Assembly (NCBI RefSeq): GCF_964213995.1
Contig: NW_027590185.1
Span: forward strand, 310,001-374,000
Length of the DNA stretch: 64,000 nucleotides
Reading direction: 5' to 3'
From: Mustelus asterias
Lineage: Eukaryota
This document shows, one piece after another, positions 453-45,190 of this stretch (positions are counted from its first letter, which is position 1; each line of letters begins with the position of its first letter). The position numbers and the translations under genes were made by a program. A model generated the notes under the pieces. That model was not told the DNA's origin and did no database searches. It saw nothing but the letters and a program-made list of their open reading frames with translations.

Positions 453-663
453 TGTAATTCTTTGTAAACTTATTTTGCAGGAAATTGAAGAGAAGGATTT
501 GCAGTCTGGATGATCGAATCTCACGTCAGACAGAGTCAATCGGTTCATCGGGATCTGAAAATTTGTGCATCTGAAGGGATTTAATTGACCATCTCAGTTG
601 GAAACTGGTGAGAATCTGTTTCCTTGCTCCTCCTGTGGGGAGGGATTGATACAGCTGGAAAAC

Positions 664-2541
664 ATGCTGACACGACAGCGAGCTCGCAACAGTGAGAGTT
701 CATTCACCTGCTCCGTGTGTGGGAAGAAATTCATGTGTTCGTCCAACCTGCTGGCTCACCAACTCGATCACATTGATGAGAAGCCTCTTCAAAGCTCTGG
801 CTCTGGGGACAGCGTTGAGACGCCTGAGGAACAGGCCCAACACCAGCTCCTTCACACTGACGAGAGACCGTTCAGCTGCTCCCACTGCGGGATGAGGTTC
901 AGCCAGTCCTCCCGCCTTGCAGAGCACCAGCTCCTTCACACACACGAGAGACCGTTCAGCTGCTCTCACTGTGGAGAGTCGTTCAGCAACTCAGTGCATC
1001 TCACTGAGCATCAACCAGTTCATACCAAGGACAGGCCATTCAGCTGCTCCCAGTGTGGGAAGAGATTCACTCAGTCCTCCCACTGCACCGTTCACCAACT
1101 GGTTCATTCTCAGAAGAGACATTTTAAATGTTTTAAATGTGAGAAGACCTTCAAAAGAAGCATTAGTCTGCTGAGACACCAGGACACTCACACCGGGGAG
1201 AAGCCGTACCCCTGTTCTGTTTGTGGGAAGAGATTCGCTCATTCATCTCATCTTCTGACACACAAGCGAGTTCACACTGGGGAGAGGCCTTTCCTCTGCT
1301 CCCTGTGTGGGAAGAGATTCACTCGATTTTCACGCCTTTTGACACACAAGAGTATTCACACTGGAGGGAAACCATTCACCTCCTCAATGTGTAGAAAGGA
1401 AGAAGTTCAATCAACTGACCAGCTGACACACCAGCGAGTTCACACTGGGGAGAAGCTGTTCACCTGCTCGGTGTGTGGGAAGGAATTCACTCAGTCTTAC
1501 TATCTTCTGAGGCACCGGCGAGTTCACACTGGGGAGAGGCCATTCCTCTGCTCCGTGTGTGGGAAGATGTTTCCTCGTTCATCCCAGCTTGTGATACACG
1601 AGCGTGTTCACACAGGGGAGGGGCCTTACGCTTGCCCTGTGTGTGGGAAAGCATTTGCTTCTTTACAACACCTGCTGAAACATCGGCCTGTTCACACCGG
1701 GGAGAGGGCGTTCATCTGCTCCGAGTGTGGGAAGGCTTTCACCGAGTCATCCAGCCTCCGGACACACCGCCGCACTCACACAGGGGAGAAGCCGTTCTCC
1801 TGCTCCATATGTGGCAAGAGATTCACTCAGTCATCTGACCTGCTGAGACACCAATACATTCACACAGGGGACAGGCCGTTCACCTGCTCTGTGTGTGGGA
1901 AGGGATTCATTGGTTCATCCCGCCTGCAGACACACCAGCGAGTTCACACTGCGACAGAACCGTTCACCTGCTCTGTGTGTGGGAAGGGATTCACTGATCC
2001 ATCCCACCTGCAGAGACACCAGCGAGTTCACACCGGGGAGAAGCCGTTCACCTGCTCTGTGTGTGGGAAGGGATACACTCAGGTATCGAACCTGCAGAGA
2101 CACCAGCGAGTTCACACTGGAGAGAGGCCGTTCCTGTGCTCTGTGTGTGGAAAGGGATTCGCTCAGTCGTCCAGCCTGCTGAGACACCAACGCATTCACA
2201 CCGGGGAGAAGCCGTTCACCTGCTCTGTGTGTGGGAAGGGATTCACTGATCCATCCCGCCTGCAGAGACACCAGCGAGTTCACACTGGGGCAAAACCGTT
2301 CACCTGCTCTGTGTGTGGGAAGGGATTCACTGATCCATCCCGCCTGCAGAGACACCAGCGAGTTCACACCGGGACAGAACCGTTCACCTGCTCTGTGTGT
2401 GGGAAGGGATTCACTGATCCATCCCGCCTGCAGAGACACCAGCGAGTTCACACTGGGGCAAAACCGTTCAACTGCTCCATGTGTGGGAAGGGATTTAATC
2501 AGTATTACAGCCTGCTGAAACATAGACGACTTCATGTGTGA
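664..2541 (+). CDS. Tandem C2H2 zinc-finger protein, ~20 intact fingers plus degenerate ones, no effector domain seen
   Basis: ORF 598-2541 with repeated CxxC..HxxxH and TGE(K/R)PF linkers. ORF-track start is TTG; first in-frame ATG is 664. Splice acceptor TTTTGCAG ends at 480, homologous to those of the other ZNF genes. Confidence 0.85.
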   Translation: MLTRQRARNSESSFTCSVCGKKFMCSSNLLAHQLDHIDEKPLQSSGSGDSVETPEEQAQHQLLHTDERPFSCSHCGMRFSQSSRLAEHQLLHTHERPFSCSHCGESFSNSVHLTEHQPVHTKDRPFSCSQCGKRFTQSSHCTVHQLVHSQKRHFKCFKCEKTFKRSISLLRHQDTHTGEKPYPCSVCGKRFAHSSHLLTHKRVHTGERPFLCSLCGKRFTRFSRLLTHKSIHTGGKPFTSSMCRKEEVQSTDQLTHQRVHTGEKLFTCSVCGKEFTQSYYLLRHRRVHTGERPFLCSVCGKMFPRSSQLVIHERVHTGEGPYACPVCGKAFASLQHLLKHRPVHTGERAFICSECGKAFTESSSLRTHRRTHTGEKPFSCSICGKRFTQSSDLLRHQYIHTGDRPFTCSVCGKGFIGSSRLQTHQRVHTATEPFTCSVCGKGFTDPSHLQRHQRVHTGEKPFTCSVCGKGYTQVSNLQRHQRVHTGERPFLCSVCGKGFAQSSSLLRHQRIHTGEKPFTCSVCGKGFTDPSRLQRHQRVHTGAKPFTCSVCGKGFTDPSRLQRHQRVHTGTEPFTCSVCGKGFTDPSRLQRHQRVHTGAKPFNCSMCGKGFNQYYSLLKHRRLHV

Positions 2542-2607
2542 CCGGCAAAGTTGGATTCTGTTGTTTCTGCGCCCTGAGATAAACAGTAACAATTGGATCA
2601 ATAGTTG

Positions 2608-5190: not shown

Positions 5191-5469
5191 CCTATTGATA
5201 CGATTGATTGTAACACTATCCTTCACCTTCTTTTTCCCCAGTTCTCCTCCCCTGAAGGTGCTGACTCTCGGGATCAGTTTCACACTCACCTGCTGCCTTC
5301 CCCAATGTCACCCAAGTGTCTAAATCTTTCCACCTGAAGTTAACAAACTGTTTTGTAAAGGGGACATCCCAATGCAATCCAGTGACTCCCCACATGTACT
5401 TTGTGTCAGGGTGGGGTCACTGCGCCCCCCACTCCCACTTTCCATCACAGTCCCGGGAGTTTAGAGACT

Positions 5470-5780
5470 GGGATCCGCATGAGTAATGGCGGCCGCAGCT
5501 CCCACAATCGCCCACGATGGAGAAACCGCTCTATCCACCACGCGGGCGGGCCACATTGGGCTGCGCATGTCCAGAGGAGAGAGGAGGCTGCGCATGTGCA
5601 AAGAGATCTCACCCACCCCCCCACCCCATGACGTTCATGCTGAAGTGTTGACCAATGGAAAGAGTTGGAGGACCGGAAGGACTCTGGTCCTCCAGTCAAT
5701 CAGAGTGCGGGCGTTTTGTGAATGAACATGGAGATGCAGTCAGACAAAATTTTCCCGCTCTCCCTAATATCTGTGAGTAA
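5470..5780 (+). promoter_or_regulatory. CpG-island promoter and first exon of ZNF gene at 6.5 kb
   Basis: AATGGCGGCC (YY1-like), CTCCCACAATCGCCCACG (ZNF143-like), two TGCGCATG (NRF1-like), CCAAT, TGGAGGACC-n11-GGTCCTCCA with CCGGAAG; donor GTGAGT at 5773; exon 2 5961-6026; acceptor ending at 6194. Confidence 0.75.
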
Positions 5781-6520
5781 AACACTTTCTTTTCTCCCCC
5801 TTTCAATTTATTTTCTCATTCTGGGGAAAATTGGGGACTTGCGGCAACTGAAGGGAATGAAGTGAATCCAGTCTGTACATTCCACACATTTTTACTCCAG
5901 TCATATAGACATTTATCTGTCTGGCAGCCTGCATGGAGGTTTTCAGCTCTCTGTGTCCAGGACAGGAAGCAGTGAGCATGGATTTGTCAATCAGCCTCAA
6001 TCAGCACCTTCAGGAGAATTGGGAGGGTGAATATTAGATACAGCGGAGTGAGAATGGAGGGAGAGTGTGTGGGATGGAGATTCACAGCTTTTGGAGAATG
6101 AGGGAGGAAAGAATGTTCCATAGAAACTAGAACTGTCTGTTCTGAATTTCTAACCTGTACTGACAGTGATGAATTTAATAAATTCCTTTTACAGAATATC
6201 AGAAGGTGAGGATTTACAGACAGTAATCTCAAAGCAAATGTCACATCAATATCTGACAGAGTCATTTAATTCATCATGTCCTGAACATCATCAGCCTTTG
6301 TACCTAGAGGGAGAAATATTTCTCTGTTCTTTTTGCTTCTGGAGATTTTAAACATCAGCGTGACTGAGAATTTACCAAGTCTCACGCACACACCCGAGTG
6401 AGAGTGTTCCAGTGCACTGACTCTGGAAAGAGCTTTAACCAGGGACACAGTCTGCAAAAAACATTGCGGCATTCACAGTGGGGAGAGACTGTACCCGTGT
6501 ACTGTGTGAGATTTAACTGA

Positions 6521-8274: not shown

Positions 8275-8990
8275 AAATCGTCAAACCTGGAGAGTCACAA
8301 GGCCGTCCATACCCTGACGATATGGTGGAAATGTGGGGATTGTAGGAAAGGACTCCATGCCCCCTGTGAACTGGAAACCCATCGACCCAGGCACAGCAGA
8401 AAGAGGCGCCCATCTGCTCTGTGTGTGGGAAGGGATTCATTGATTCACCCACTCTGCAGCAACACCAGCGAGTTCACACTGGGGAGAGGCCACTCACCTG
8501 CTCTGTGTGGGGGAAGAGATTCAGTAATTCCTCCATTCTGCTGATATACCAGCAAGTTCACACTGGGGAGAGGCCGTTCACTTGTTCTGAGTGCGGAAGG
8601 GAGTCAATGACTCATCAACCCTGCTGATACACCAGCGCATTCACACGGGAGAGAGGCCATTCCCCTACTCTGAGTGTAGGAAGGGATTCACTCAGTTATC
8701 CAATCTGCTGAGACACCAGCGCACTCACACCAATGAGAAAACATTTAAATGCTCTGATTGTGGGAGTTGCTTCAGAAACTCTGCCGACCTGAAGATCCAC
8801 CAGCACATTCACACTGAGGAGAGACCGTTCTGCTGCTCTCACTGCACAAGGAGGTTTCGAACATCATCCAAGCGACTGAGCCATTGGCGAGTTCACACTG
8901 GGGAGAGGCCTTTCACCCACCCTGTGTGTGGATGGGATTCACTTGGTCATCGGAGCTGCTGGGACACTCGGGCAGTCACACTGATTGGAG
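8275..8990 (+). pseudogene. Zinc-finger pseudogene fused downstream of a CR1 fragment (~7860-8270)
   Basis: Finger remnants split over ORFs 8421-8627 and 8591-9034 (frameshift), an upstream in-frame TAG, and C->W/Y substitutions. Confidence 0.8.
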
Positions 8991-13358: not shown

Positions 13359-14792
13359 TAAAACTTGGCCGCGTTAGTGAAGAATGATTGAAGACAAATT
13401 GCTCGACACACTGGTCTGTTCCAATCATCAAATGGTCTTTATTTTACAGCGGCGGGGAGGAAGTCGCTGATCTCACCTTGCAACCTCTACCCTGAACATA
13501 GAAAATCACACATTCTTATCCATTTACTGCAGCCCATTCCGGCTGGTTACAAACTAATCACAATATGAATCGATTCCAGACATATCCAATCAAGCTAACA
13601 ATTAGGCATCATGTGGCTGTGTGATCAGCTCATGGACAGCTCTGGACCATCTCATCATGTGGACCAGACACCTTATAACAACTGACCTTGTGACATCACA
13701 ATGACTCACTATACTCAGGACTTTCTGATCTCCACCACATCCCAGCCTATTCCGTTAGCAGTCGGTTACTCAGTGCAGCTGCCTGTGTGCTGATAAGAGG
13801 GGCCCTGCTGAGCAGCTTTAATGGTCCGTGATTGCAGAAACTGAGCAGTCACAGGAATGTGGTCAAGATAGTCCAGTCCCATAATGCCTCACATTCAATC
13901 TGCAGTCCTTCAATTATAACAGAATATGTGGCTGTATGTAGCTGCCTCGGCCGTGGTCAACCCCAACACTGCCTTCCTGAACTGCTACATTGCCTGAGGT
14001 GTAAGTACACCCACAGTGCTGTTAGGGAGGGATTTCCAGCTACACATTCCAGTCTTTCACTAGACTGTCGATGGATACCAGATTGATATATTCCATTCAA
14101 CCACACCCAAGGTGAGTTATTCCAATTCCTTTATTGTCCAGGACAATATATTCACAATATCTTTAAAACAGAAATTAAACATTCCCATTTGATTTCAGGC
14201 AGTAACATATTCTGTTAGTTTGTTCTTTATTGTCAATGTGAGACTGGGATTGTTCCCCTTGGAGCAAAGGAGGTTGAGGGGAGATTTGATAGAGGTGGGC
14301 AAGATTCTGACAGGTTTAGATAAGGTGGACAAAGAAAAGCTGTTCCCATTAGCTGATGGGACAAGGACGAGGAGGACAGAGATTTATGGTTTTGGGTCAG
14401 AGATGCAGGGGGGTGATGTGAGGAAGAATATTTTGATGCAGCGAATGGTAATGACCTGGAACGCGCTGCCTTCGAGAGTGGAGGAAGTGGAGACAATAAA
14501 CAATTACAAAGGAAATTGGATGGGCACTGGGAGGTTTCAAACAGAAATTCTGACTAAATATCTCTGAACTTCCTCACACCCTGTCACTCTGTGATCCTTG
14601 TGAAATTTGAAACCAGGTATTCGCAACAAGACTCAGAGCATCAGCCCACTGGAGGCAAAGTCATGAGACCGACCAGTCCAGCAGAAAGAAACCCTCCGAC
14701 CCTCCCCATTGGCCAACTGTGAGAATGAACAAAATGCAGTCCTGGATGTAACTGAGAGCAGAAACAATAACAGCAGAATCCAACCCCTGGAA

Positions 14793-15467
14793 TCACTCAT
14801 GAACTTGTTGGTGTCTCAGCAGCAAGAATGAAACTCTGAATCCCTTCCCACACTGAGAGCAGGTAAACGGCCTCTCCCCAGTGTGAACCCGCTGGTGTCT
14901 CCACCAGCTGGATGACCGAGCAAATCCCTTCCCACACTGAGAGCAGGTGAACGGCCTCTCCCCAGTGTGAACTCGCTGGTGTGTCTGCAGATCGGATAAC
15001 TGAGTGAATCCCTTCCCACACTGAGAGCAGGTGAATGGTCTCTCCCCAGTGTGAACTCGCTGGTGTCTCCGCAGGTTGGATGACTCAGTAAATCCCACCC
15101 CACACACAGAGCAGATGAATGGCTTCTCCCCAATGTGACCTCGTTGGTGTCTCCGCAAGTTGGATGACTGAATGAATCCCTCCCCACACTGAGAGCAGGT
15201 GAATGGCCTCTCCCCAGTGTGAATGCGCTGGTGTGTCTGCAGAGTAGATAACCGAGTGAATCCCTTCCCACACTGAGAGCAGGTGAACGGCCTCTCCCCA
15301 GTGTGAACTCGCCGGTGTCTCTGCAGGCTGGATGACAGAGTGAATCCCTTCCCACACTGAGAGCAGATGAATGGCCTCTCCCCAGTGTGGCTGCGCCGAT
15401 GAGCATCCAGCAGAGATGGAGATCTGTATCTCTTCCCACAGTCCGCACATTTCCATGGTTTCTCCAT
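14793..15467 (-). CDS. C2H2 zinc-finger protein, 8 fingers
   Basis: ACCATGG start (MEKPWKC) at 15467 and an open array to TGA; upstream exons inferred at 17591-~17700 and 15988-16053, coding exon begins at 15818. Confidence 0.85.
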
Positions 15468-16944
15468 GGTGCAGGTGTCCTTGCCTCTGTCTTGTTTGGA
15501 CAATCAGTTAATGCCTCGTCCACCCACAAAACACGGGTACAGTCTCTCCCCACTGTGAATAGTGTGATATTTATTCAGGCGGTGTAACTTGTTAAAGCTC
15601 TTTAGTCAGTGCACTGGAACACTCTCACTCGAGTGTGGCAGTGTGTTGCTGCTTTTCCAGTCACACTGACATTTGAAATCTATTCAAATCGACAGACCGG
15701 ATAATCATTTCTCCTTCTAGATTCAAAGGCCAATGATATTCAGATCCCAAGGAATATGACTCTGTCGGATCTAGACATGACGGTTGAGATTTCGGCCTGT
15801 GATTCCTCTTTCAATATCCTGCAAAATGAGTTTGCAAAAGTCATCAGTGTCAGTACAGGATAGAAATTCAGAACAGACAATTCTAGTTTCTGTGGAACAT
15901 TCTTTCCTCTCTCATTCCCCAAAAAGCTGTGAATCTCCATCCCACACACTCTCCCTCCATTCTCACTCTGCTGTATCTAATATTCACCCTCCCAATTCTC
16001 CTGAAGGTGCTGATTGAGGCTGATTGACAGATCCAGGCTCACTGCTTCCTGTCCTGGACACAGAGACCATAACAAATAGGTGCTGCAGTCGGCTATTTGA
16101 CCCATCGAGCCTTTTAAACTATTCAATGAGATAATTCATTCATCTCCCTCAGCATCATTCTCCCCACACTAAACCCATATCCCTTGACATCTTCAATATT
16201 GAGAAACCAATCAATCTCTCCCCTGAAAATAGTTGATGACTGAGGCTTCACTGTCCTCAACGGTTGAGAATTCCAAAGCTTCACCACATACTTGAGTGAA
16301 GAAATCCCCCCACATCTTATCTTTTGCTCCATCTTCTTGTCTGTTCCCCATAACCATTAATGCCCCTGTCAGTCAAAAATCTGTCTAACTCATCCTGGAA
16401 TATATTCAATGACCTTCAGCCTCCACTGGTCCCTGTGGAAGACAAATCCAAAAGACTTACAACCCTCTGAGGGAAGAGATGTCTGGAAATATATAATGTA
16501 GCTACAGTTCCATATTACAAGTCTATGGATTCTATTTAAAAATGAAAGTGGATGGGCACTTGAAGGAAATAAACTTTCAGGAGAATGGGGATATAGAGTG
16601 GGAATGGGACTGGAACGTTATCCAGAGAGTCAGCATGGACTCGAGTTACCAAATGGACTCCTTCTGTGCTGTAATGACTATGGCTGGAAATGTATAAGAT
16701 AGCTACAGCATTATATTACAACACAAGAAATAATAATAAATGCACTTTTTTACAGAACCATAAATAACATATCTAATCGGTACCATATAACAACACTCGA
16801 CATATCTCTGTCTTATATTAATGTACTGTCCCCTTAAATGTCAGCCATCTCCTGGGGAAAGATGCCCTTTAATTGTGAACATTTAGCCAGACAAATAAAT
16901 GTCCTTTTAGCCAGACAAATAAATGTCTCAAGCTGAGGGAGCAA

Positions 16945-17580: not shown

Positions 17581-17930
17581 TTTTACTCACAGATGTGAGA
17601 GAAGGAGGAAGTTTGAGTCTGTCTGCAGCTTCATCTTCATTCACACAAAGCCCGCGCTCTGATTGGCTGGAGGACCAGAGTCCTTCCGGTCCTCCAATTC
17701 TTCCCATTGGCCAGAGCTGCGCAGTGAATCAAAAGTGCGCATGTGTGGGTTTTTAGGAGGAATGCGCATGTGCGGGTGTGGAGCGGGGTCCGGGACTGAG
17801 CCGGCGCACTGACCATTGTCTGTCCGGATCTTCCAGCCTTTTCCAATGGACAACAGCTCAGCGCGGCTGGAGGACAAAGTCCCGTCCACCCCCACGAGGG
17901 GCTCCGCCCCTCATTGTCTGTCTGCAGGGG
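17581..17930 (-). promoter_or_regulatory. CpG-island promoter and exon 1 of the 14.8 kb ZNF gene
   Basis: Reverse-complement homolog of 5640-5780: CCAAT, TGGAGGACC/GGTCCTCCA palindrome at 17668-17696, TGCGCATG motifs, donor GTGAGT. Confidence 0.75.
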
Positions 17931-17994
17931 ATTGCACAGTAAGAAGTTTAACAACACCAGGTTAAAGTCCAACAGGTTTATTTGGTAGCAAAAG

Positions 17995-18039
17995 CCACAC
18001 AAGCTTTCGGAGCTCCAAGCCCCTTCTTCAGGTGAGTGG
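17995..18039 (-). ncRNA. Minimal type I hammerhead ribozyme in PLE pseudo-LTR
   Basis: CAC-CUGAAGA-A-GGGGC-UUGGA-GCUCC-GAAA-GC-UU-GUG: conserved core, stem II, palindromic AGCU helix III. Confidence 0.7.
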
Positions 18040-18833
18040 GAATTCTGTTCACAAACAGAGTTTATAAAGACATAGACTCAATTTACAGAATAATGGTTGG
18101 AATGCGAATACTTACAACTAATCAAGTCTTTCAGAAACAAAACAATGGGAGTGGAGAGAGCATCAAGACAGGCTAAAAAGATGTGTATTGTCTCCAGACA
18201 AGACAGCCAGTGAAACTCTGCAGGTCCACGCAACTGTGGGAGTTACAAATAGTGTGACATGAAGCCAATATCCCGGTTGAGGCCGTCCTCGTGGGTGCGG
18301 AACTTGGCTATCAGTTTCTGCTCAGCGACTCTGCGCTGTCGTGTGTCGCGAAGGCCGCCTTGGAGAACGCTTACCCGAATATCAGAGGCCGAATGCCCGT
18401 GACCGCTGAAGTGCTCCCCAACAGGAAGAGAACACTCTTGCCTGGTGATTGTCGAGCGGTGTTCATTCATCCGTTGTCGCAGTGTCTGCATAGTTTCCCC
18501 AATGTACCATGCCTCGGGACATCCTTTCTTGCAGCGTATCAGGTAGACAACGTTGGCCGAGTTGCAAGAGTATGTACCGTGTACCTGGTGGATGGTGTTC
18601 TCACGTGAGATGATGGCATCTGTGTCGATGATCCGACACGTCTTGCAGAGGTTGCTGTGGCAGGGTTGTGTGGTGTCTTGGTCACTGTTCTCCTGAAGGC
18701 TGGGTAGTTTGCTGCGGACAATGGTCTGTTTGAGGTTGTGCGGTTGTTTGAAGGCAAGAAGTGGGGGTGTTGGGATGGCCTTGGCGAGATGTTCGTCTTC
18801 ATCAATGACATGTTGAAGGCTCCGGAGGAGCAA

Positions 18834-20360
18834 TCGGGCAATGGGACCCTGTGCGAGAACCTCTCCGGCTATGTCGAGGGCATCCTGAAACCCATTGTAC
18901 AAAGAACCCCCAGCTTTTGTCGCGACACGACGGACTTCCTACAGAAACTCGGCACACATGGAGCAGTTGAACCAGGAGCGCTCCTCGTCACAATGGATGT
19001 CTCGGCACTCTACACCAGCATCCCCCATGACGATGGCATTGCTGCAACGGCCTCAGTGCTCAGCGCCAACAACTGCCAGTTTCCAGATGCAACTTTACAT
19101 CTCATCCGCTTCATCCTGGACCACAATATCTTCACCTTCAACAACCAGTTCTTCATCCAGACACACGGAACAGCCATGGGGACCAAATTTGCACCTCAAT
19201 ATGCCAACATCTTCATGCACAGGTTCGAACAAGACTTCTTCACCGCACGGGACCTTCAACCGATGCTATACACTAGATACATCGATGACATTTTCTTCCT
19301 TTGGACTCATGGTGAACAATCACTGAAACAACTCTATGATGACATCAACAAGTTCCATCCCACCATCAGGCTCACCATAGACTACTCTCCAGAATCGGTT
19401 GCATTCTTGGACACGCGCATCTCCATTAAGGACGGTCACCTCAGCACCTCACTGTACCGCAAGCCCACGGATAACCTCACGATGCTCCGCTTCTCCAGCT
19501 TCCACACTAAACACGTTAAAGAAGCCATCCCCTACGGACAAGCCCTCCGTATACACAGGATCTGCTCGGATGAGGAGGATCGCAACAGACACCTCCAGAC
19601 GCTGAAAGGTGCCCTCATAAGAACAGGATATGGCGCTAGACTCATTGATCAACAGTTCCAACGCGCCACAGCGAAAAACCGCACCGACCTCCTCAGAAGA
19701 CAAACACGGGACACAGTGGACAGAGTACCCTTCGTTGTCCAGTACTTCCCCGGAGCGGAGAAGCTACGGCATCTCCTCCGGAGCCTTCAACATGTCATTG
19801 ATGAAGACAAACATCTCGCCAAGGCCATCCCCACACCCCCACTTCTTGCCTTCAAACAACCGCACAACCTCAAACAGACCATTGTCCGCAGCAAACTACC
19901 CAGCCTTCAGGAAAACAGGGACCACGACACCACACAACCCTGCCACAGCAACCTCTGCAAGACGTGTCGGATCATCGACACAGATGCCATCATCTCACGT
20001 GAGAACACCATCCACCAGGTACGCGGTACATACTCTTGCAACTCGGCCAACGTTGTCTACCTGATACGCTGCAAGAAAGGATGTCCCGAGGCATGGTACA
20101 TTGGGGAAACTATGCAGACGCTGCGACAACGGATGAATGAACACCGCTCGACAATCACCAGGCAAGATTGTTCTCTTCCTGTTGGGGAGCACTTCAGCGG
20201 TCACGGGCATTCGGCCTCTGATATTTGGGTAAGCGCTCTCCAAGGCGGCCTTCGCGACACACGACAGCGCAGAGTCGCTGAGCAGAAACTGATAGCCAAG
20301 TTCCGCACACACGCGGACGGCCTCAACCGGGATATTGGGTTCATGTCACACTATTTGTAA
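18834..20360 (+). CDS. PLE reverse transcriptase plus Cys-linker plus GIY-YIG endonuclease (5'-truncated, uninterrupted)
   Basis: DVSALYTSIP, QTHGTAMG, RYIDDIF, FLD RT motifs; PCHSNLCKTC linker; NVVYLIRC..WYIGET..RMNEH..E..LN endonuclease. Confidence 0.9.
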   Translation, partial: SGNGTLCENLSGYVEGILKPIVQRTPSFCRDTTDFLQKLGTHGAVEPGALLVTMDVSALYTSIPHDDGIAATASVLSANNCQFPDATLHLIRFILDHNIFTFNNQFFIQTHGTAMGTKFAPQYANIFMHRFEQDFFTARDLQPMLYTRYIDDIFFLWTHGEQSLKQLYDDINKFHPTIRLTIDYSPESVAFLDTRISIKDGHLSTSLYRKPTDNLTMLRFSSFHTKHVKEAIPYGQALRIHRICSDEEDRNRHLQTLKGALIRTGYGARLIDQQFQRATAKNRTDLLRRQTRDTVDRVPFVVQYFPGAEKLRHLLRSLQHVIDEDKHLAKAIPTPPLLAFKQPHNLKQTIVRSKLPSLQENRDHDTTQPCHSNLCKTCRIIDTDAIISRENTIHQVRGTYSCNSANVVYLIRCKKGCPEAWYIGETMQTLRQRMNEHRSTITRQDCSLPVGEHFSGHGHSASDIWVSALQGGLRDTRQRRVAEQKLIAKFRTHADGLNRDIGFMSHYL

Positions 20361-20564
20361 CTCCCACAGTTGCGTGGACCTGCAGAGTCTCACTGGCTGT
20401 CTTGTCTGGAGACAATACACATCTTTTTAGCCTGTCTTGATGCTCTCTCCACTCCCATTGTTTTGTTTCTTAAAGACTTGATTAGTTGTAAGTATTCGCA
20501 TTCCAACCATTATTCATGTAAATTGAGTCTGTGTCTTTATAAACTCTGTTTGTGAACAGAATTC

Positions 20565-20609
20565 CCACTCACCTGAAGAAGGGGCTTAGAGCTTCGAAAG
20601 CTTGTGTGG
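20565..20609 (+). ncRNA. Minimal type I hammerhead ribozyme in PLE pseudo-LTR
   Basis: CAC-CUGAAGA-A-GGGGC-UUAGA-GCUUC-GAAA-GC-UU-GUG. Confidence 0.7.
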
Positions 20610-23499: not shown

Positions 23500-23862
23500 C
23501 CCAGGTGTTTGGAGACTGGGCTCCGGCCGAGTAATGGCGGCCGCAGCTCCCACAATCCCCCGCGCTGGAGAAATCGCTCTATTCGCCGGGTGGGACTGCG
23601 CATGATTAACCCAGAGAAGTTCTGCGCATGTGCGGGGGATAGCGTTTCCCATTGGCCAATAACTGAGAGCGACCCGGGGTCAAAGTGTCTTCGACTCACT
23701 TCCGCTGCACCACTGTCTTCATGAGGGGTATTGACCAATGGAAGGAATTGGAGGACCGGAAGGATACTGGTCCTCCAGCCAATCAGAGTGCGGGCTTTGT
23801 GACAATGCAGATTGGATTTCAGACAGACTGAAATCTCCTCCTGTCGTCAACATCTGTCAGTA
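23500..23862 (+). promoter_or_regulatory. CpG-island promoter and exon 1 of the 25 kb ZNF gene
   Basis: AATGGCGGCC, CTCCCACAATCCCCCGCG (close to the Staf/ZNF143 consensus), TGCGCATG x2, CCAAT boxes, palindrome 23749-23777, donor GTCAGT at 23856. Confidence 0.8.
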
Positions 23863-25280
23863 AAACACTTTGTTTTCTTCTCTCCTTTTTCTTCTCATTC
23901 TGGGGTTAAATTGGGGACTTGCAGCAACTGAAGGGAAAGGAAGTGAATTCAGGGAGCTGCAGACTCTGGAAAGGTTGGCCCAGGTATCTCTCTCCCTCTT
24001 AAAGACATTGCCATCCTTTGCTTCCTCAACTTGTCACATTTATTTGTCTGGTTAAGAGGATGGTCTCTTTCCTAATGTTCACAATTTAAAGGGATGATTT
24101 CCCGAGGAAATAGCTGAAATTTAAAGGGCAGTAAATTAATATAGGACAGAGATGTGTGCAGTCTTGTAATATGGTACAAATTAGATATATTATGCATGGT
24201 CCAGTAATAAAGTTCATTTTTTATTATTTTTAGTTTTGTTAATACTGTAACTAAGTAGTTTATTTTCAGTAATCGGGTTATCGTATCACACAAGGAGTCC
24301 ATTCAGCAACTCAAGTCCATGCTAACTCTCTGTCGAGCAATCCAGTCAGTCCCATTCCCCCTTAAGTTCGTAAGATAGAGGAGCATAATTAGGCTATTTG
24401 GCCCATTGAGTCCACTCCGCCATTCAATCATGGCTGATATGCTCCTCATCCCGTCTGTATCCCTGTTCCCCTGCCAGTCTATTTTGACTGCCATCTAATT
24501 TCATTTTGAAATATTGAATGTATCAAAATGCACCACCCTCATAGCCAAACAATTGATATTCAAGAACGTTCACTGTCGAAATAATGTTCTATCTCATAGC
24601 CTTGCTGTACTTCTAATTATTAAACTGGTCCCCTATGTTACATACATTTTACTTCGCTAAGTATATTTAGGTATTTAGACTAGCAGCCTGCATGAAGATA
24701 TCTCAGTGCTGGAGAAGAAGCAGTGAGCATGGATTTGTTGATCAGCATGAATCAACACCTTCAGGAGAATTGGAAGGGTGTATTATACATACAGCAGAGT
24801 GAGGAGACAGGGATAGGGTGTGGGATGGAGATGTACAGATCCAGAGGAACGAGAAAGGAAGAAATGTTCCACAGAAACTAGAATTGTCTATTCTGAATTT
24901 CTGTTTGATACTGACAGTGATGACTTTTGTAAACTCATTTTACAGGAAGTTATAAGGGGAAGATTTGCTGCCAGCAATCTCAAAACATGTTAAGGCTTAA
25001 TAGAGTCACTCAAATTATCAGAACTTGAATATCATCAGACTTTGAATCTAGAAGAAGAAATATTTATCTGTTTTTTCTGTCACATCAGTGTGACTGGAAA
25101 GGCACCAAGGAACACAGACCTGAGTGAGAGTGTCCAGTACACTGACTGTCAAAAGACCAGTTACACAGACTGCAAAAATATCACATCATTTACAGCGGGG
25201 ACAGACAGTACACATGCTCTATGTGTGGATGAGGATTTAACTGATTGTTAAACCTGGAAAGACACAAGGACATCCACACC

Positions 25281-26579
25281 ATGGAGAAACCGGGAAAAGA
25301 TGAGGTTTGTGGTAAGGAATTCCATATCCCGTCTGCACTGCAAACTCATCAACATATTCACACTGGGGAGAGACTGTTCCCCTGCTCCAAGTGTGGGGAA
25401 GGAGACTGCTCCCCATCTGCCCTGAAGATTCATCAATGCAGCCACACTGGGGAGAGGCCCTTCATCTGCTCTGAGTGTGGGAAGGGTTTTCTCCAGGCAG
25501 CCGACCTGTGGAATCACCAAGCAGTTCACAGTAGGGAGAGGCCGTACACCTGCTCTGAGTGTGGGAAGGGATTCACTCAGTTATCCCACCTGCTGACAAA
25601 CCAGCAAGTTCACACTGGGGAAAAACCGTTCAACTGCTCTGAGTGTGGGAAGCAATTCAATCATTCATCTGAACTTTTGAATCACCAACAAATCCACACC
25701 GAAGAGCGACAATTCACCTGCTCCGACTGTGGAAAGGGTTTCACTCAGTCATCTCACCTGCAGATACACCAGCGAGCCCACACTAAGGAGAGGCCTTTCA
25801 ACTGCTCTGAGTGTGGGAAGTGTTTTATTCAATTATCACACCTAGTGAATCACCAGGAAGTCCATAGGGGGGAGAGGCCGTTCCCCTGCTCCGAGTGTGG
25901 GAAGCGTTTTATTCAGTTATCACACCTAGTGACTCACCAGGGAGTCCACAGGAGGGAGAGGCCATTCCCCTGCTCCGAATGTGGGAAGCGTTTTATTCAG
26001 TTATCACACCTAGTGACACACAAAGGAACACACACAAGGGAGAGGCCATTCAGCTGCCCCGAATGTGGGAAACGTTTTATCCAATCGTCACACCTAATGT
26101 CACACCAGGGAGTTCACAGCAGGGAGAGGCCATTCGTCTGCTCCGAGTGTGGGAGGCGTTTTATTCAATCATCCCACCTAGTGTCGCATCAGGAGGTTCA
26201 CACCAGGGAGAGGCCATTTACCTGTTCCGAGTGTGGCAGGGGATTCATTCAGTTATCCGACCTGCAGAATCACCAGCAAGTTCACACCGGGGAGAGGCCA
26301 TTCACCTGCTCTGAGTGTGGGAAGGGATTCACTCGTTCAGCTAACCTGCAGGCACACCGACGTGTTCACACCAGGGAGAGACCATTCACCTGCTCTGAGT
26401 GTGGGAAAGGATTCGCTCTTTCGTCTTATCTGCAGAGTCACCAGCAAGTTCACACTGGAGAGAGGCCGTTTATCTGCTCTGAGTGTGGAAAGGGATTCAT
26501 TCAGTCATCCCACCTGCAGACACACCAACGAGTTCACAAGGATTCACAAAGGGATTCACTCAGTCATCCCACCTGCTGA
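25281..26579 (+). CDS. C2H2 zinc-finger protein, ~13 intact plus 2 degenerate fingers
   Basis: ACCATGG start at 25281 and an open array; coding exon acceptor ends at 24945. Confidence 0.85.
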   Translation: MEKPGKDEVCGKEFHIPSALQTHQHIHTGERLFPCSKCGEGDCSPSALKIHQCSHTGERPFICSECGKGFLQAADLWNHQAVHSRERPYTCSECGKGFTQLSHLLTNQQVHTGEKPFNCSECGKQFNHSSELLNHQQIHTEERQFTCSDCGKGFTQSSHLQIHQRAHTKERPFNCSECGKCFIQLSHLVNHQEVHRGERPFPCSECGKRFIQLSHLVTHQGVHRRERPFPCSECGKRFIQLSHLVTHKGTHTRERPFSCPECGKRFIQSSHLMSHQGVHSRERPFVCSECGRRFIQSSHLVSHQEVHTRERPFTCSECGRGFIQLSDLQNHQQVHTGERPFTCSECGKGFTRSANLQAHRRVHTRERPFTCSECGKGFALSSYLQSHQQVHTGERPFICSECGKGFIQSSHLQTHQRVHKDSQRDSLSHPTC

Positions 26580-26904
26580 GACACCAGTAAGTTCACAAGT
26601 GATGACAGGGGTTGGATTCTGCTGTTATTGCTGCTGTTAATCACATCCAGGACTGAACCATGTTCATTCTGACAGTTGGTGAAGTGGGAGGGTCGGAGAG
26701 TTTCTTTCTGCTGGACTGGCCGGTCTCACAACTTTGTTTCCAGTGGACTGATGCTCTTTGAGTTTGGGAGAGCACATTTCCACTGAAATGATTCGCAAAA
26801 ACAAAGCTGATGAATGTGCCAACTCGACACAGCCACCCAAGGCCGGAATCGAACCCGGTCCCTGGGGCTGTGAGCCAACTGGTCTAACCACTGCACCACC
26901 ATAT

Positions 26905-32140: not shown

Positions 32141-32183
32141 TGTTCCACCCTCCCAGCCTCCTTAATAACAGAATGAACATGAT

Positions 32184-33494
32184 TCAGTCCTGCATGGGGT
32201 TAGCAGCAACAGCAGAATCCAATCCCTGCAGTGACTTGTGAACTTGCTGGTGTCTCAGCAGATTGGCTGACCGAGCAAATCTCTTCCCACATACGGAGCA
32301 GGTGAACGATCTCTCTCCTGTGTGAACCTGCTGGTGTCTCAGCAGGTGGGATGACTGAGTGAACCTTTTCCCACACATGGAGCAGGTGAATGATCTCTCC
32401 CCAGTGTGAATTTGCTGGTGTCTCAGCAGGTCCTTCGTGCTTTTAAAACTTTTCTCATAGTCAGAACACTTAAAAGGTCTCTGATCAGTGTGGACCAGTT
32501 GATGTGCAATGAGCTGGGGTGGCTGAGTGAATCGTTTCCCACATGTGGAGCAAGCGAAGGGTTTCTCCCCAGTGTGAATTCGCTCGTGTATCAGAAGGTG
32601 GGGCGAATCAGTGAATCCCTTCCCACACACACAGCAAATAAATGTCTTCTCCCCGGTGTGAACTCGCTGGTGTCTCAGACAGTGGGATGAATGGGTGAAT
32701 CCCATCCCACACACCGAGCAGGTGAACGGTTTCTCCCCAGTGTGAACTCGCTGGTGTGTCACCAAATCCTGTTTACTTTTAAAGCTCTTCTCACAGTCAG
32801 AACACTGAAATGGTCTCTTATCAGAGTGAACTCGCTGGTGTGTTTGCAGCTGGGATAAACGTCCGAATCTCCTCTCACACACGGAGCAGGTGAATGGCTT
32901 CTCCCCAGTGTGAGTGCGCTGATGGACTTGTAAATCATTTTTACTTTTAAACCTCTTCTCACAGTCAGAACATTGAAATGGTCTCCGATCAGTGTGAACA
33001 AGTTGGTGTGTCAGAAGGTGGGATGACTGAGTGAATCCCTTCCCACACACTGAGCAGGTGAACGGTCTCACCGCCATGTGAGTGCGCTGGTGTCTCAGGA
33101 GGTCCTTTGTGCTTTTAAAGCTTTTCTCACAATCAGAACATTGAAACGGTCTCTGATCGGAGTGAACTTGCCGGTGAATCAGGAGGCTTGATAAAGCATG
33201 ACATCCCCTCCCACATTCGAGGCAGGTGAACGGCCTCTCACCAGTGTGAACACGCCGGTGTGTATAGAGGCTGGATGAGTAAGCAAATCCTTTCCCACAC
33301 TCAGAGCAGGTGAACGGCCTCTCTCCAGTGTGAATGCGACGATGAATATCCAATTCGGACGGGTAATTGAATCCCCTCCCACAGTCCCCACATTTCAATG
33401 GTTTCTCTGTGCTGCCGGTGTCCTCGTGTGACTCCAGGTTGGATGATGAGTTGAAGCCTCGTTTACACAGAATATGAGTCGGGTCACTACTCAC
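32184..33494 (-). CDS. C2H2 zinc-finger array, 13 intact fingers plus 1 broken (C->Y); family ATG absent
   Basis: Open frame from GTG; the MEKP position reads TEKP (ACA); the frame reads through the usual stop position into SLQGLDSAVAANPMQD. Confidence 0.75.
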   Translation of the reverse strand: MSSDPTHILCKRGFNSSSNLESHEDTGSTEKPLKCGDCGRGFNYPSELDIHRRIHTGERPFTCSECGKGFAYSSSLYTHRRVHTGERPFTCLECGRGCHALSSLLIHRQVHSDQRPFQCSDCEKSFKSTKDLLRHQRTHMAVRPFTCSVCGKGFTQSSHLLTHQLVHTDRRPFQCSDCEKRFKSKNDLQVHQRTHTGEKPFTCSVCERRFGRLSQLQTHQRVHSDKRPFQCSDCEKSFKSKQDLVTHQRVHTGEKPFTCSVCGMGFTHSSHCLRHQRVHTGEKTFICCVCGKGFTDSPHLLIHERIHTGEKPFACSTCGKRFTQPPQLIAHQLVHTDQRPFKCSDYEKSFKSTKDLLRHQQIHTGERSFTCSMCGKRFTQSSHLLRHQQVHTGERSFTCSVCGKRFARSANLLRHQQVHKSLQGLDSAVAANPMQD

Positions 33495-33989
33495 TGAGAA
33501 TGATGTGATTATTTTTCAGACTTGTTCAACCACTTTCCACATTCAGCACATTGGAAACCCTCAGGTGTGTGTGTGTCTCGGTGCTTTTTCAGTCACACTG
33601 ATGTTTGAAATCTTTGCCCGCAGACAGAATAAACATTTCTCCTTCTGGAGACAAAGGCTGATGATATTCAGTTTCTGATTAATCAAATCACTGAAACAGA
33701 TCTTGATGTGAAGTTTGGTTTGAGTTTCATATCTGTAAATCTTGCTTCATAATACTCTGCAAAAACAGTTTACAAATACAGGGTACCATCACTGTCAGTC
33801 CAGGATAGAAATTCTGAAATTTCTCTGCAACATATTTTCCTCTCTTGTTCCCCGTCCCACACACTCTCCCACCTCCCCTGGGCTGAAATCCAAACCCATC
33901 TCAACATCTCCACCATTTCTTTCCTCCACTCCATTTTCTCCCTCCCTCTCCTCTGTCTGGGTTCAGTTATTGATGTGGAAATCTCACTA

Positions 33990-34235: not shown

Positions 34236-34579
34236 GGTTTAGTTCTCCAGCTCCTGTCTGCAGACTGACAATAAAACCAATGGGTCTGGGGCCTCCAGCG
34301 GGTGTTTGTGAATCCTCCCCGCCCACCTCCCAGGGTTTCCTTCCTTCCCAGAGATCAGAGTCCTCATTGATTTGAGGCCAAAGTGTAACCTCTTATTTAT
34401 TGTCCCCCTCCCCCATCCTCTGATGTGAACCATCCTCCAGTGGCTGAGCCAGGATGGGGCCGTTAACCTGGGCCTGTTCCCGGGAGGGAGGGAGGGAGAA
34501 GCCCCGCAGCTGCAAACCAGGGAGCTGACAATGATTCTGAAGGGTTTGCGGATCCACAAAGTGTTTCCAAATCCTCCCA

Positions 34580-34930
34580 GCCACCGCCTAACGCTGACTC
34601 CGCTTCTCCGGGACAAACAAGCGCCAAGGACAGCAATGACACTGCGCATGCTCCACATCACAATGCCCAGGGGCTGATTGACAGCAGCTCCGGACCAATA
34701 GGAAGAGGGGGCGGGGCTGGAGGACCGAGTGGGAGCGGCTGGTCCTCCAACCAATCGGAATGAATGAGGGGCGGGACCTGAAGCATGCGCAGTGCGGGTG
34801 AACCAGATAAACCTGTTGGACTTTAACCTGGTGTTGTTTGACTTGTTGCTGTGTTTACCCCAGTCCAACGCCGGCATCTCCACATCAGTGCGGGTAATGG
34901 CGACGGCCGGTTTTAGTTTGGAAGCGAGAT
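34580..34930. promoter_or_regulatory. CpG-island, probably bidirectional, promoter between divergent ZNF genes
   Basis: TGCGCATG and GCATGCGCA (NRF1-like), two CCAAT, two GGGCGG boxes, TGGAGGACC-n14-GGTCCTCCA, AATGGCG. Confidence 0.7.
34800..34885 (+). mobile_element. 86-bp PLE 3' end insertion with 10-bp TSD
   Basis: CAGTGCGGGT at 34790-34799 and 34886-34895 flank ATAAACCTGTTGGACTTTAACCTGG...CCAGTCCAACGCCGGCATCTCCACAT. Confidence 0.8.
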
Positions 34931-35651: not shown

Positions 35652-36137
35652 ATGGGGAGAGAGTGTGTGGGATGGAGATTTACAGCTTTTGGGGAATGAG
35701 AGAGGAAAGAATGTTCCATAGAAATTGTCTGTTCTGAATTTCTATCCTGTACTGACACTGATGACTTTTGTAAACTCATTTTACAGGATATTGAAAGAGG
35801 AATCACAGGCTGAAATCTCAAACGTCACGTCTCGATCTGACAGAGTCTTATTCCTTGGGACCTCAATATCATCGGACTTTGAACCTAGAAGGAGAAATGA
35901 TTGTCCAGTCTGTCGATTTGAAAAGATTTGAAATGTCAGTGTGAGTGAAAAAGCATCAACACACTACCACACTCGAGTGAGAGTGTTCCAATGCACTGAC
36001 TAAAGAGCTTTAACCAGTTACACAGTCTGAATCAATATCACACCATTCACAGCGGGTAGAAACTGTAATCTTGTTCTGTGTGTGGACGAAGTTTCAACTA
36101 ATTGTCCACCCAAGAGAGAGGTAAGGACACCTGCACC

Positions 36138-36896
36138 ATGGAGAAACCATGGAAATGTGTGGACTGTGGGAAGGGATGCAGAACCCCATCTCAGCTGGAA
36201 GCTCATCGGCGCAACCACACTGGGGAGAGGCCGTTCATCTGCTCTCAGTGTGGGGAGGGATTCACTCGGTCAACCAACCTGCAGTCACACCAGCGAGTTC
36301 ACACTGGGGAGAGACCATTCACCTGCTCTCAGTGTGGGCAGGGATTCATTCAGTTCTGCAGCCTGCAGACACACCAGCGAGTTCACACTGGAGAGAGGCC
36401 ATTCACCTGCTCTCAGTGTGGGAAGGGATTCACTCGGTCATCCCACCTGCAGAGACACCAGCGAGTTCACACTGGGGAGAGTCCATTCACCTGCTCTCAG
36501 TGTGGGAAGGGATTCACTCAGCCATCCCACCTGCAGAGACACCAACGCATTCACACTGGGGAGAGGCCGTTCACCTGCTCTCAGTGTGGGAAGGGATTCA
36601 CTCAGTCATCCAACCTGCGGACACACGAACGAGTTCACACTGGGGAGAGACCGTTCACCTGCTCTCAGTGTGGGCAAGAATTCACTCAGTTATGCACCCT
36701 GCAGACACACCAGCTAGTTCACACTGGGGAGAGGCCATTCACCTGTTCTCAGTGTGGGAAGGGATTCACTCGGTCATCCACCCTGCGGACGCACCAGCGA
36801 GTTCACACTGGGGAGAGTCCGTTCACCTGCTCTCAGTGTGGGAAGGGTTTCAGCGTTTCATCCCAGCTGCTGAGACATCAACAGGTTCACGAGTGA
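36138..36896 (+). CDS. C2H2 zinc-finger protein, 9 fingers; close paralog of the 14.8 kb gene
   Basis: ACCATGG start at 36138; coding exon acceptor ends at 35786; UTRs align with 14570-15970 reverse complement. Confidence 0.85.
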
Positions 36897-37149
36897 TGAC
36901 AGTGGTTGGATTCTGCTGTTATTGTTTCTGCTCTCAATTACATCCAGGATTGCATTTTGTTCATTCTCACAGTTGGTCAATGGGAAGGGTCAGAGGGTTT
37001 CTTTGTGCTGGACTGGCTGGTCTCAGCCTCCAGTGGGCTGATGCTCTTTGAGTCTTTTTGTGAATACCTGATTTCAAATGTCACAAGGATCACAGAGTGA
37101 CAGGGTGTTAGGAAGTTTAGAGATATTTAGTCAGAAGAAAACAGAGGTT

Positions 37150-42546: not shown

Positions 42547-43064
42547 AATTCACACAAACAGTGTTTCAAAACAAATCGAAGAGAAAGATGTTTTTTCTTC
42601 TTCAGTCCAAACGTTACACATGAAGAAACCCTCTTCTGGTATCTCCAATAATTTGTTGCTTCGAGCAATTCTTTTCATGGAACAATCAGATAATTGATGA
42701 TTGAAAATGGAACTAATTGTATCCCTTTAAAGCAGGAGGGCGATTGCCCGGCACAGAGGGGAATTAGGGATTTCTCCCATAGACCAATTGACAGGGATTC
42801 TACCCTCCAACCACCTGAAGTGAATTCTTTACATGAATCATCCGTGCCAGTGCAGTTATCAACTTGCAGTTTGGCTGATCAGAAAATGCTTTGTTGCTGA
42901 TTTTCCTTGTGTTAGGAAGTGACAATGCCAAGGCCAGATCTTGTTTCCTCCTTGATCGGGATGTAACCCGTGTCCACATCGCCACTTCATTCTTCCACTG
43001 GTTGTATGGTTCAGTCTCCGAGAGCATCAGCAGGTAATCAGACCCTGACAATTCCCACTGCCTT

Positions 43065-45190
43065 TCAGTCATTTCTCACAAAAGCTTGAGTGAATCCCCT
43101 CCCACACTCGGAGCAGATGAATGGCCTCGGCCCAGTGTGAATGCGTTGGTTTGTCAGCGGGAGGGATGAGTGAGTGAATCCCTTCCCACGCTTTGAGCAG
43201 GGGAACAGTCCCTCACCCGTGTGAAATCGCTGGTGGTTCTGCAGGGTAGATGACTGAGTGAATCCCTTTCCACACACACAACAGGTGAATGGTCTCTCCC
43301 CATTGTGAACCCGCTGGTGTGTCAGCAGGGCAGACGAATCGCTGAATTTCTTCCCACACTCAGAGCAGGTGAATGGCCTCTCCTGATGTGAAGTCGCTGG
43401 TGATTCCTCAGGGTGGATGAATCACGAAATCCCCTTCCAAACTCAGAGCAGGTGAACGGTGTCTCCACAGTGAGGCTGCATCGAAGGGTTTCCAGCTTCG
43501 AGGGACAATTGAATCCCTTCCCACAGTCCCTACATTTCCATGGTCTGCGTGTCTTTGTAATCTCCAGGTTCAGATGAAGGTTTGACCCCACAGATAACAC
43601 GTACATGGTCTCTCTCCTCACTGTGAATCCTTCAATCTTTTCCAGGCTGTGTAACTGGTTAAAGCTCTTTCCACAGTCAGTTCACTGGAATACTCTCACT
43701 CAAGTGAATGTGTCTCAGTGATTTTCCAGTCACACTGATGTTTAAACAGTTTGAAGGAAAAGACAAACATTTTCCATTCTAGTTTCAAATGTCGATGGTA
43801 TTCAGATCCTGAATAATTGTGTGACTCTGTCAGATCCTAACGTCATGTTTGTTGAGATTTGTGTCTGTAAATTCTCCCCTTCTAATAGCCTGTGAAAGAA
43901 ATTCACAAAAATCATTGCTGTCAGTACAGGATAAAAACTCAGAACAGACAATTCTAGTTTCTGTGGAACATTCTTTCCTCTCATTCTTGAAAATTTGTAA
44001 ATCTCCATCCCAAACACTCTCCCTCCATTCTCACTTTGCTGGACCTGAAATAGACATTGTCCTGAGAGTGCTGATTCATCCTAATCGACAGATCCATGCT
44101 GACTGTTTCATGTACAGGACACATATTCCTGAAATCTTCACACAGGCTTGTGTCCAAGCATATAAAAAATTTGCATATTTAGTGAACTAAAAATGTATGC
44201 AATATTCAGAACTCTATTACAAGATTAGAGATACAGATGGGTGCGGAAGAACTTGACATGGGAGCAAGCAATCATGTTCTGGAACTCACTGACGATGAGA
44301 GTGGTGGAAGTGGAGACGACCAGTGATTTCAAAATAAAATTGGTCGGGCACTTGAAGGAATTAAACGTACTGGGGAACAGGGATATCGAGGAAAAATGGC
44401 ACTGAGTGGATTCCCCGACAGAGACTTGGCATGGACTCAAGCTGCTGAATTGATTTATCTTGTGCTCTGCTGACTCTTTAACTGGAAAATATACAGTGTA
44501 GTTACAATACTATTCTGGAATTAAACAACATCAACTGTAATACAAATCCATAAATAACATACCTAATATGCACCATATTGTAAGACGTCTCACAACACCA
44601 GGTTAAAGTCCAACAGGTTTATTTGGAATCACAAGCTTTCACAGCGCTGCCCCTTCATCACGTGAGAAGGAGCAGCGCTCTGAAAGCTCGTGATTCCAAA
44701 TAAACCTGTTGGACTTTAACCAGGTGATGTGAGACTTCTTACTGTGCCCACCCCAGTCCAACACCGGCATCTCTACATCATATGCACCATATAACAACAC
44801 CAGACATATCAATGTTTTTACGATCCTCATGGTCACCTTATAATAAACAAATTCCCACAAATCCCAAGGGAATAAACTGAAAGACAATGTTTTATTTATT
44901 AAATTTTTACTTTAAAAAATAATCTAAAATTATCACAACTGAATCATTCATTAAGAAACAGTATTTGAATAGACAGGATAAATTACACTTTAAAAAGCTC
45001 AGACAATAAAAACAGGTTCCACAAAATCACAAACATTTTCCCCCTCAGCATATTTAGCTCTAATTCCAGTTCCAGAGAATTTCTCTGTCTCTGTATTTCC
45101 CAGGGGACGAAAGAAAGTATTTTCCTCACAGATGTTGGCCAGAGGAGAAAGTTTGAGTCTGTGTGTGAAGCTAAAAACAGAAGCTGAGCT
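43065..45190 (-). pseudogene. Zinc-finger pseudogene (exon 1 ~45130-45190, exon 2 ~44050-44120, finger exon 43065-43890)
   Basis: Frameshifted finger remnants in ORFs 43065-43277 and 43322-43621; homologous leader; promoter position occupied by CR1 fragment ~45250-45790. Confidence 0.8.
44579..44779. mobile_element. 200-bp PLE-derived hairpin element with 13-bp TSD
   Basis: ATATGCACCATAT at 44566-44578 and 44780-44792; inverted pLTR ends meet at hammerhead remnants; paralogous empty site at ~16770-16795. Confidence 0.85.

What the first reader, a model, noticed from the sequence alone, without database searches (positions are those of the whole stretch)
480..45190. Cluster of effector-less poly-zinc-finger genes with a stereotyped cassette: candidate non-KRAB counterpart of the KRAB-ZFP system
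Seen: eight ZNF units (6 open, 2 pseudogenes) in alternating orientations. None shows KRAB, SCAN or BTB; the intact proteins are essentially pure finger arrays. Most units reuse the same promoter, two short exons, decayed leader and post-stop motif, and there is clear birth-and-death turnover. Established: KRAB-ZFPs are a sarcopterygian/tetrapod expansion that targets transposons, and cyprinid fish use FiNZ-ZNFs. Inference: this may be an independent chondrichthyan rapidly evolving DNA-recognition repertoire, possibly anti-transposon, sitting in retroelement-dense DNA.
Basis: partly seen in the sequence, partly recalled or inferred. Interest (0 to 1): 0.8.

Follow-up and report, generated by a model that had tools for sequence, protein, structure and literature searches.

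The report
Shark finger-only zinc-finger gene family
This shark DNA is the end of a cluster in a family of thousands of copied genes whose intact members encode only zinc fingers, with no silencing domain in front, and whose DNA-reading positions change fastest, so they likely recognise repeats such as jumping genes, although no target or partner has been shown.

Summary
The observation largely holds. The eight C2H2 arrays are real and end a 50-array cluster. The assembly holds 2,165 exact copies of the family's start motif. Corrections: only four units are intact with a start codon; orientation is not strictly alternating; two promoter types occur.

'Effector-less' survived a direct test. The reading frame from the conserved splice acceptor reaches the fingers in 1 of 58, 0 of 33 and 0 of 16 cases. 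The leader is a fossil coding stretch now serving as 5' UTR, and its stops are shared with distant sharks. One processed retrocopy confirms the exon 2-3 splice.

Arrays diversify by segmental duplication, gain and loss of whole fingers, and about 2.5-fold faster change at DNA-contact codons; dN/dS above 1 is supported by counting, not significant by likelihood. A fixed tryptophan-marked first finger is the candidate cofactor handle (inferred). Transposon binding and silencing are untested.

Shark ZNF counts are already in Wells 2023's supplement; my searches found no description of this architecture. The scan noted this family before on other DNA. Verdict: new variant of a known kind.

The parts
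481..2541 (+). u1: last exon; short leader, then ORF 664-2538 (625 aa, 20 fingers); lacks the tryptophan first finger; its promoter lies outside the window
5560..5772 (+). u2 promoter type A (paired CCAAT boxes, NRF1-like sites; motif names recalled) and exon 1, donor after 5772; predicted
5961..6026 (+). u2 exon 2 (66 bases, carries an upstream ATG); junction to exon 3 confirmed by one retrocopy elsewhere in the genome
6195..7375 (+). u2 last exon: fossil-finger leader, 9-finger open frame whose start codon is lost (ATA at 6557), post-stop motif
8290..8930 (+). u3: frameshifted array without acceptor or promoter; pseudogene
14633..15818 (-). u4 last exon: leader, intact ORF 15467-14796 (224 aa, 8 fingers), post-stop motif
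15988..16053 (-). u4 exon 2 (upstream ATG changed to CTG)
17591..17775 (-). u4 promoter type A and exon 1; predicted
17933..20671 (.). Reverse-transcriptase element (550-aa frame, Penelope-like by recalled anatomy) with a 98% identical inverted partial copy, lying between the head-to-head promoters of u4 and u5
23620..23855 (+). u5 promoter type A and exon 1; predicted
24712..24777 (+). u5 exon 2
24946..26760 (+). u5 last exon: leader, ORF 25281-26576 (432 aa, 13 fingers, first finger degenerate, frameshifted tail), post-stop motif
32143..33756 (-). u6 last exon: leader, 13-finger open frame whose start codon is lost (ACA at 33410), post-stop motif
34455..34800 (.). Promoter type B between head-to-head u6 and u7 (CCAAT, GC boxes, NRF1-like sites at 34643 and 34783; names recalled); predicted bidirectional, exons not verified
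35787..37050 (+). u7 last exon: leader, intact ORF 36138-36893 (252 aa, 9 fingers), post-stop motif; member of a young subfamily with at least 40 leader copies at 97-100% identity
43087..43889 (-). u8 last exon: leader and frameshifted array; pseudogene
44020..45200 (-). u8 degenerate exon 2 (donor deleted) and exon 1/promoter remnant (donor near 45130)

Best explanation
These units belong to a shark gene family of thousands of copies whose intact members encode only tandem zinc fingers, and which likely works as a fast-changing repertoire that reads repeated DNA such as transposons and would recruit any silencing partner through the fingers themselves. Shown: a gene is a promoter (often back to back with a neighbour), one or two short non-coding exons, and one last exon that holds a dead coding leader, the start codon, the array and an immediate stop. 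New specificities arise by duplication of large blocks, by gain, loss and exchange of whole 84-base fingers within an array, and by faster change at helix positions -1, 3 and 6. About half the copies decay. Inferred: the proteins bind DNA; the targets are repeats; the fixed first finger, with a conserved surface away from the base-contact positions (Trp, Asp, Pro+1, Glu+5), is the docking site; upstream ATGs in exon 2 and the leader keep each protein at low level.
For: No in-frame upstream exon: frame open from acceptor to fingers in 1 of 58 arrays, while 54 of 58 keep the acceptor AG; 0 of 33 hits (with one duplicate and one mis-called site) and 0 of 16 in further samples. Leader shows no codon-position pattern (0.85/0.83/0.84 against 0.92/0.83/0.79 after the start) and 92 of 109 deletions break frame. 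Annotated proteins from other sharks that read into the leader end at the same two stops and have unrelated N-termini. One intronless retrocopy joins exon 2 to exon 3 at the predicted sites, which implies past germline or early-embryo transcription. 29 subfamily copies with near-identical leaders carry 5 to 13 in-frame fingers with differing contact residues (counting the window's own copy; 2 of 30 loci gave no start). Contact codons: pN/pS 1.95 (interval 1.75-2.20) against pooled synonymous change, linkers 0.52, Phe and Leu core 0.05-0.15; tree length 275 against 112 for non-contact codons. Tryptophan finger is first in 39 of 41 cases. Precedents: ZNF number tracks retroelement number across animals and FiNZ knockdown derepresses elements (PMC10547256, passages); the finger-only human ZNF146 binds LINE-1 (PMC8896011, abstract and passages).
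Against: No binding site, partner, chromatin mark or expression stage was measured. By maximum likelihood omega at contact codons is only 1.23 and not significantly above 1 (log-likelihood -2323.5 against -2325.1, p about 0.08); counts on a spanning tree are inflated by finger-to-finger exchange. The first finger's own contact positions also vary (1.5), so it may simply bind DNA. T-cell-receptor-like V segments in the same contigs are amplified too (40 of 40 listed matches), so copy number alone needs no selection on the ZNF genes. ZNF146's abstract reports no silencing role.
Confidence: 0.5

Rival explanations
1. Passenger amplification: the clusters sit in blocks that duplicate by unequal recombination; a modest number of members matter, most are tolerated extra copies, and apparent diversification is minisatellite turnover with relaxed constraint at surface residues.
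For: 75.7 kb at 99.74% identity between two contigs; V segments amplified alongside; 29 of 58 arrays truncated or without a frame and only 7 of 25 scored intact on two chromosomes; likelihood test not significant.
Against: Core Phe and Leu, linkers, splice acceptors (54 of 58) and frame are kept across paralogues about 75% identical; contact codons change faster than synonymous sites in counts.
Confidence: 0.2
2. Functional DNA- or RNA-binding repertoire with another job: ordinary gene regulation, meiotic or chromosome-structure marking in the manner of PRDM9 arrays, or binding of the family's own clusters or of RNA.
For: Arrays evolve like minisatellites, with 84-base units up to 88% alike within u7 and finger number varying between near-identical genes. 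Exon 2 is more conserved than the leader (0.93 against 0.79; units were picked by an exon 2 motif), which hints at a shared control element.
Against: No SET or other catalytic domain; thousands of genes rather than one polymorphic locus; the cross-species ZNF-retroelement correlation.
Confidence: 0.2
3. A hidden effector exists: a coding exon joins the array through a different acceptor close to the start codon, or a separate adaptor gene supplies it.
For: FiNZ sits on its own upstream exon (PMC10547256 section 4); the leader descends from a coding spacer that begins at a splice acceptor; type B promoter exons were not verified; one unit is open from the acceptor.
Against: No Pfam family in 129 of 129 upstream frames; exons 1 and 2 are too short and their ATG frames close before the array; the retrocopy uses the standard acceptor; annotated shark proteins share no N-terminal domain.
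Confidence: 0.1

Closest known systems
KRAB zinc-finger genes (KZFPs) of tetrapods and lobe-finned fish
   Same: Clustered tandem C2H2 genes, array in one last exon, birth-and-death, fastest change at contact residues
   Different: No KRAB exon; upstream exons are non-coding; TRIM28 route therefore not available through these proteins (inferred)
FiNZ-ZNFs of cyprinids (PMC10547256)
   Same: Lineage-specific expansion concentrated in repeat-rich regions shared with immune genes; contact residues diversify
   Different: No 28-residue acidic domain on an upstream coding exon; family appears several times larger; no knockdown evidence
ZNF146/OZF (human 'only zinc fingers', PMC8896011)
   Same: Protein made only of C2H2 fingers; precedent for binding a retroelement without KRAB
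   Different: A single gene rather than a family of thousands; orthology not tested
PRDM9 zinc-finger array
   Same: Minisatellite-like gain and loss of fingers, variation at contact residues (PRDM9 features recalled)
   Different: No KRAB-SSXRD-SET; multigene; descent from PRDM9 not tested

Membership tests
KRAB-ZFP | KRAB domain on an upstream exon spliced in frame to the array | tested here: not met
   the genome-wide KRAB search found 0 of 76 candidates but its control rang nowhere, so it is uninformative
KRAB-ZFP | Tandem C2H2 array with TGERP-type linkers in one last exon, in clusters with birth-and-death | tested here: met
KRAB-ZFP | Positive selection at DNA-contact residues | tested here: inconclusive
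   counting 1.7-2.3; likelihood omega 1.23, p about 0.08
KRAB-ZFP | Binds transposons and recruits TRIM28/SETDB1 | not testable with these tools
   needs ChIP and pull-down
FiNZ-ZNF | 28-residue acidic FiNZ domain on a coding exon upstream of the array | tested here: not met
   no upstream exon can join in frame through the family acceptor; no FiNZ profile was run
FiNZ-ZNF | Expression at zygotic genome activation and repression of young elements | not testable with these tools
   no run on record as RNA
OZF-type finger-only protein | Protein consists of C2H2 fingers only | tested here: met
   u4 and u7: start codon five residues before the first finger, stop one residue after the last
OZF-type finger-only protein | Orthology to ZNF146 | not tested
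   no tree built
PRDM9 | KRAB-SSXRD-PR/SET domains before the array | tested here: not met

The most novel reading that the evidence does not exclude
Sharks run a transposon-silencing system built from thousands of finger-only proteins that lost their ancestral N-terminus before the main shark lineages split, and that use a fixed tryptophan-marked first finger as the corepressor handle: a third vertebrate solution beside KRAB and FiNZ, in which the effector is a zinc finger.
Probability: 0.2. Interest if true: 0.85.

Novelty: new variant of a known kind. Interest (0 to 1): 0.5.

Why it matters
How vertebrates without KRAB-ZFPs tell their transposons from the rest of the genome is open. This family is large enough to be the shark answer. 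Its uniform start sequence makes it testable in the way FiNZ genes were (one antisense oligo against hundreds of members), and the fixed first finger gives a defined bait for finding a partner. It also warns annotators: gene models that read through the leader or fuse neighbours are artefacts of a fossil coding UTR.

Tried and rejected
RNA evidence: no RNA holder listed; contigs of four runs guessed to be RNA were laid on u6-u7 but showed no clean splice joint and cannot rank expression; not used. Direct transcript evidence for the type A exons is therefore missing. DNA around relatives in other sharks could not be read, so the cassette was compared across species only through annotated proteins. 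Mobile-element reading: rejected; copies share flanks and old inserted elements over kilobases to 75 kb, keep introns and show no common ends. Micropeptide from the exon 2 upstream frame: pN/pS 0.77, P 0.15, 3 of 25 variants with stops, 14 of 56 copies with deletions (one search had shifted frame labels and is superseded): no support. Exon 1-2 junction in a retrocopy: 0 matches; a looser exon 2-3 pattern found only the same single copy. Seven dispersed start-motif hits were examined: four keep intron 2, three are fragments too short to tell. A single-sequence search with the one open leader found nothing; the profile did. Genome-wide KRAB search uninformative. Position labels were shifted; one search supersedes them. 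Zero change at Cys and His is built into the finger pattern and is not evidence. Nine paper searches found no description of this gene architecture; one cited paper was not held; three supplementary files of PMC10547256 were not searched and bioRxiv supplements are closed, so a mention there is possible. No structure or complex was predicted.
Full report
Setting. The window lies at G000:C153:310001-374000 in a 3.68-Gb assembly. Among the 120 listed relatives of u7, the closest by identity are elasmobranch proteins (76% Mustelus, 71% Hemitrygon, 67% Carcharodon), so this is a cartilaginous fish, and the leader profile points to sharks.

Observation. Eight arrays are present. Four are intact with a start codon (u1, u4, u5, u7), two are open but have lost the family start (u2, u6), two are frameshifted (u3, u8). 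They end a cluster of 50 arrays in the first 347 kb of the contig, with u8 as one more broken unit that the scan's three-finger threshold missed. Of 49 neighbouring pairs 37 switch strand; type A promoters often stand back to back about 300 bases apart, and in the window retroelements separate those of u4 and u5 by 6 kb.

Size. The 25-base start motif has 2,165 exact matches and the exon 2 donor motif 1,480, controls 0. In the sampled cluster 12 and 9 of 50 arrays carry these motifs exactly, which scales to roughly 8,000-9,000 arrays if that cluster is typical; this is my extrapolation, and near-identical contigs (75.7 kb at 99.74%) may be duplicated haplotypes. Clusters occur on C12, C23, C71 and many short contigs. 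On the 20-Mb contig C71, 4 of 20 evenly spaced 10-kb samples held arrays, so it is not filled end to end. Of 58 arrays scored, 29 have a full frame; on C12 and C23, 7 of 25.

Is an effector hidden upstream? This was the key test, because FiNZ sits on its own exon (PMC10547256, section 4 read). An acceptor module precedes 58 of 60 arrays; 54 keep the AG, yet only one is open from the acceptor into the fingers. Two further samples gave 0 of 33 and 0 of 16. The leader's majority sequence reads as an acidic spacer followed by three dead fingers, with two in-frame stops kept in 24 of 26 and 22 of 26 dereplicated units, no codon-position pattern and mostly frame-breaking deletions. A profile of leader fragments finds 39 proteins among 1.84 billion representatives and 12 in the larger set. 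All 27 named ones that I looked up are sharks, from Pristiophorus, Heterodontus, Stegostoma, Carcharodon, Cetorhinus, Scyliorhinus and Mustelus; 8 of the 39 were not looked up and several of these look like chance repeats. Pristiophorus and Heterodontus models end at the first shared stop and a Carcharodon model at the second; their N-termini are unrelated to each other. So the leader was already dead before these lineages split (inference). Pfam finds nothing in 129 of 129 upstream frames. One processed copy on C21 joins exon 2 to exon 3 exactly at the predicted sites: a single case, but direct evidence for the splice and for past germline or early-embryo transcription.

Diversification. In the u7 subfamily, leaders 97-100% identical precede arrays of 5 to 13 in-frame fingers with reshuffled contact residues. 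Entropy is highest at helix positions -1, 3 and 6. Counting on a minimum spanning tree gives pN/pS 1.95 at these positions in 198 unique fingers of intact genes and 2.30 in 71 of the u7 subfamily, about 1.0 at other variable positions, 0.5 in linkers. A codon model on 324 fingers, truncated genes included, gives omega 1.23, 0.85 and 0.35 for the same classes; fixing omega at 1 is not rejected (p about 0.08, parameter order inferred from the likelihoods). Contact codons thus change about 2.5 times faster than the rest, and positive selection is probable but not established.

First finger. A finger with Trp in the first strand is first in 39 of 41 cases and keeps Asp, Pro+1, Ser+2 and Glu+5, positions that vary in other fingers; its contact positions still vary. 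A docking role is inference. u1 lacks it and u5's is degenerate.

Mechanism. The best reading is a repertoire of finger-only DNA readers aimed at repeats (0.5). Rivals: passenger amplification (0.2), another nucleic-acid-binding job (0.2), hidden effector (0.1). Nothing here shows a target.

Literature. PMC10547256 (passages, section 4, supplement rows): no mention of sharks in the main text, but its table lists ZNF ORF counts of 3,586 for Scyliorhinus canicula, 1,851 for Carcharodon, 1,223 for Amblyraja and 475 for Callorhinchus. PMC11603059 (passages): only PRDM9 as KRAB relative in whale shark. PMC8455134 (passages): KRAB-box families among those lost in cartilaginous fishes. PMC8896011 (abstract, passages): finger-only ZNF146 binds LINE-1. 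bioRxiv 10.1101/2025.06.08.657570 (passages): no zinc-finger mention. The expansion is therefore known as a number; I found no paper on its architecture in nine searches. Earlier notes of this scan reached similar readings on other DNA; they are not independent evidence.

Verdict. Real, not a KRAB-ZFP or FiNZ-ZNF by defining feature, likely working like them. New variant of a known kind; interest 0.5.

Noticed in passing
window:48677-49172: T-cell-receptor alpha/delta-like V segment with leader exon, open V exon and a heptamer-23-nonamer recombination signal. At least 40 copies, 39 of them 91-100% identical, lie on many of the contigs that carry the ZNF clusters: V segments amplified far from any single locus; whether they can rearrange is open.
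   Followed up: partly
window:53114-53575: Second V-set segment with a weaker recombination signal.
   Followed up: no
window:57321-58343: Single-exon rhodopsin-family receptor gene on the minus strand; relatives recur in three samples of C71 and one of C153.
   Followed up: partly
window:59933-62182: 750-residue open frame of a LINE-type reverse transcriptase.
   Followed up: no
L151 (G000:C21:59923163-59926186): Processed copy of exon 2 plus part of exon 3, joined directly to an antisense piece of the same reverse-transcriptase element family that sits at window 17933-20671.
   Followed up: partly
window:5961-6194: Exon 2 and the 168-base intron behind it are more alike between units (0.93, 0.87) than the leaders (0.79); either a shared control element or recent conversion between genes.
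   Followed up: partly
P0121: An annotated sawshark protein fuses histone H2A to the ZNF leader; probably a gene-model artefact, but it suggests histone genes beside ZNF clusters in that species.
   Followed up: no
L087:8105-9076: The one unit whose frame is open from the acceptor into the fingers; belongs to a short-leader class that starts at an earlier ATG.
   Followed up: partly
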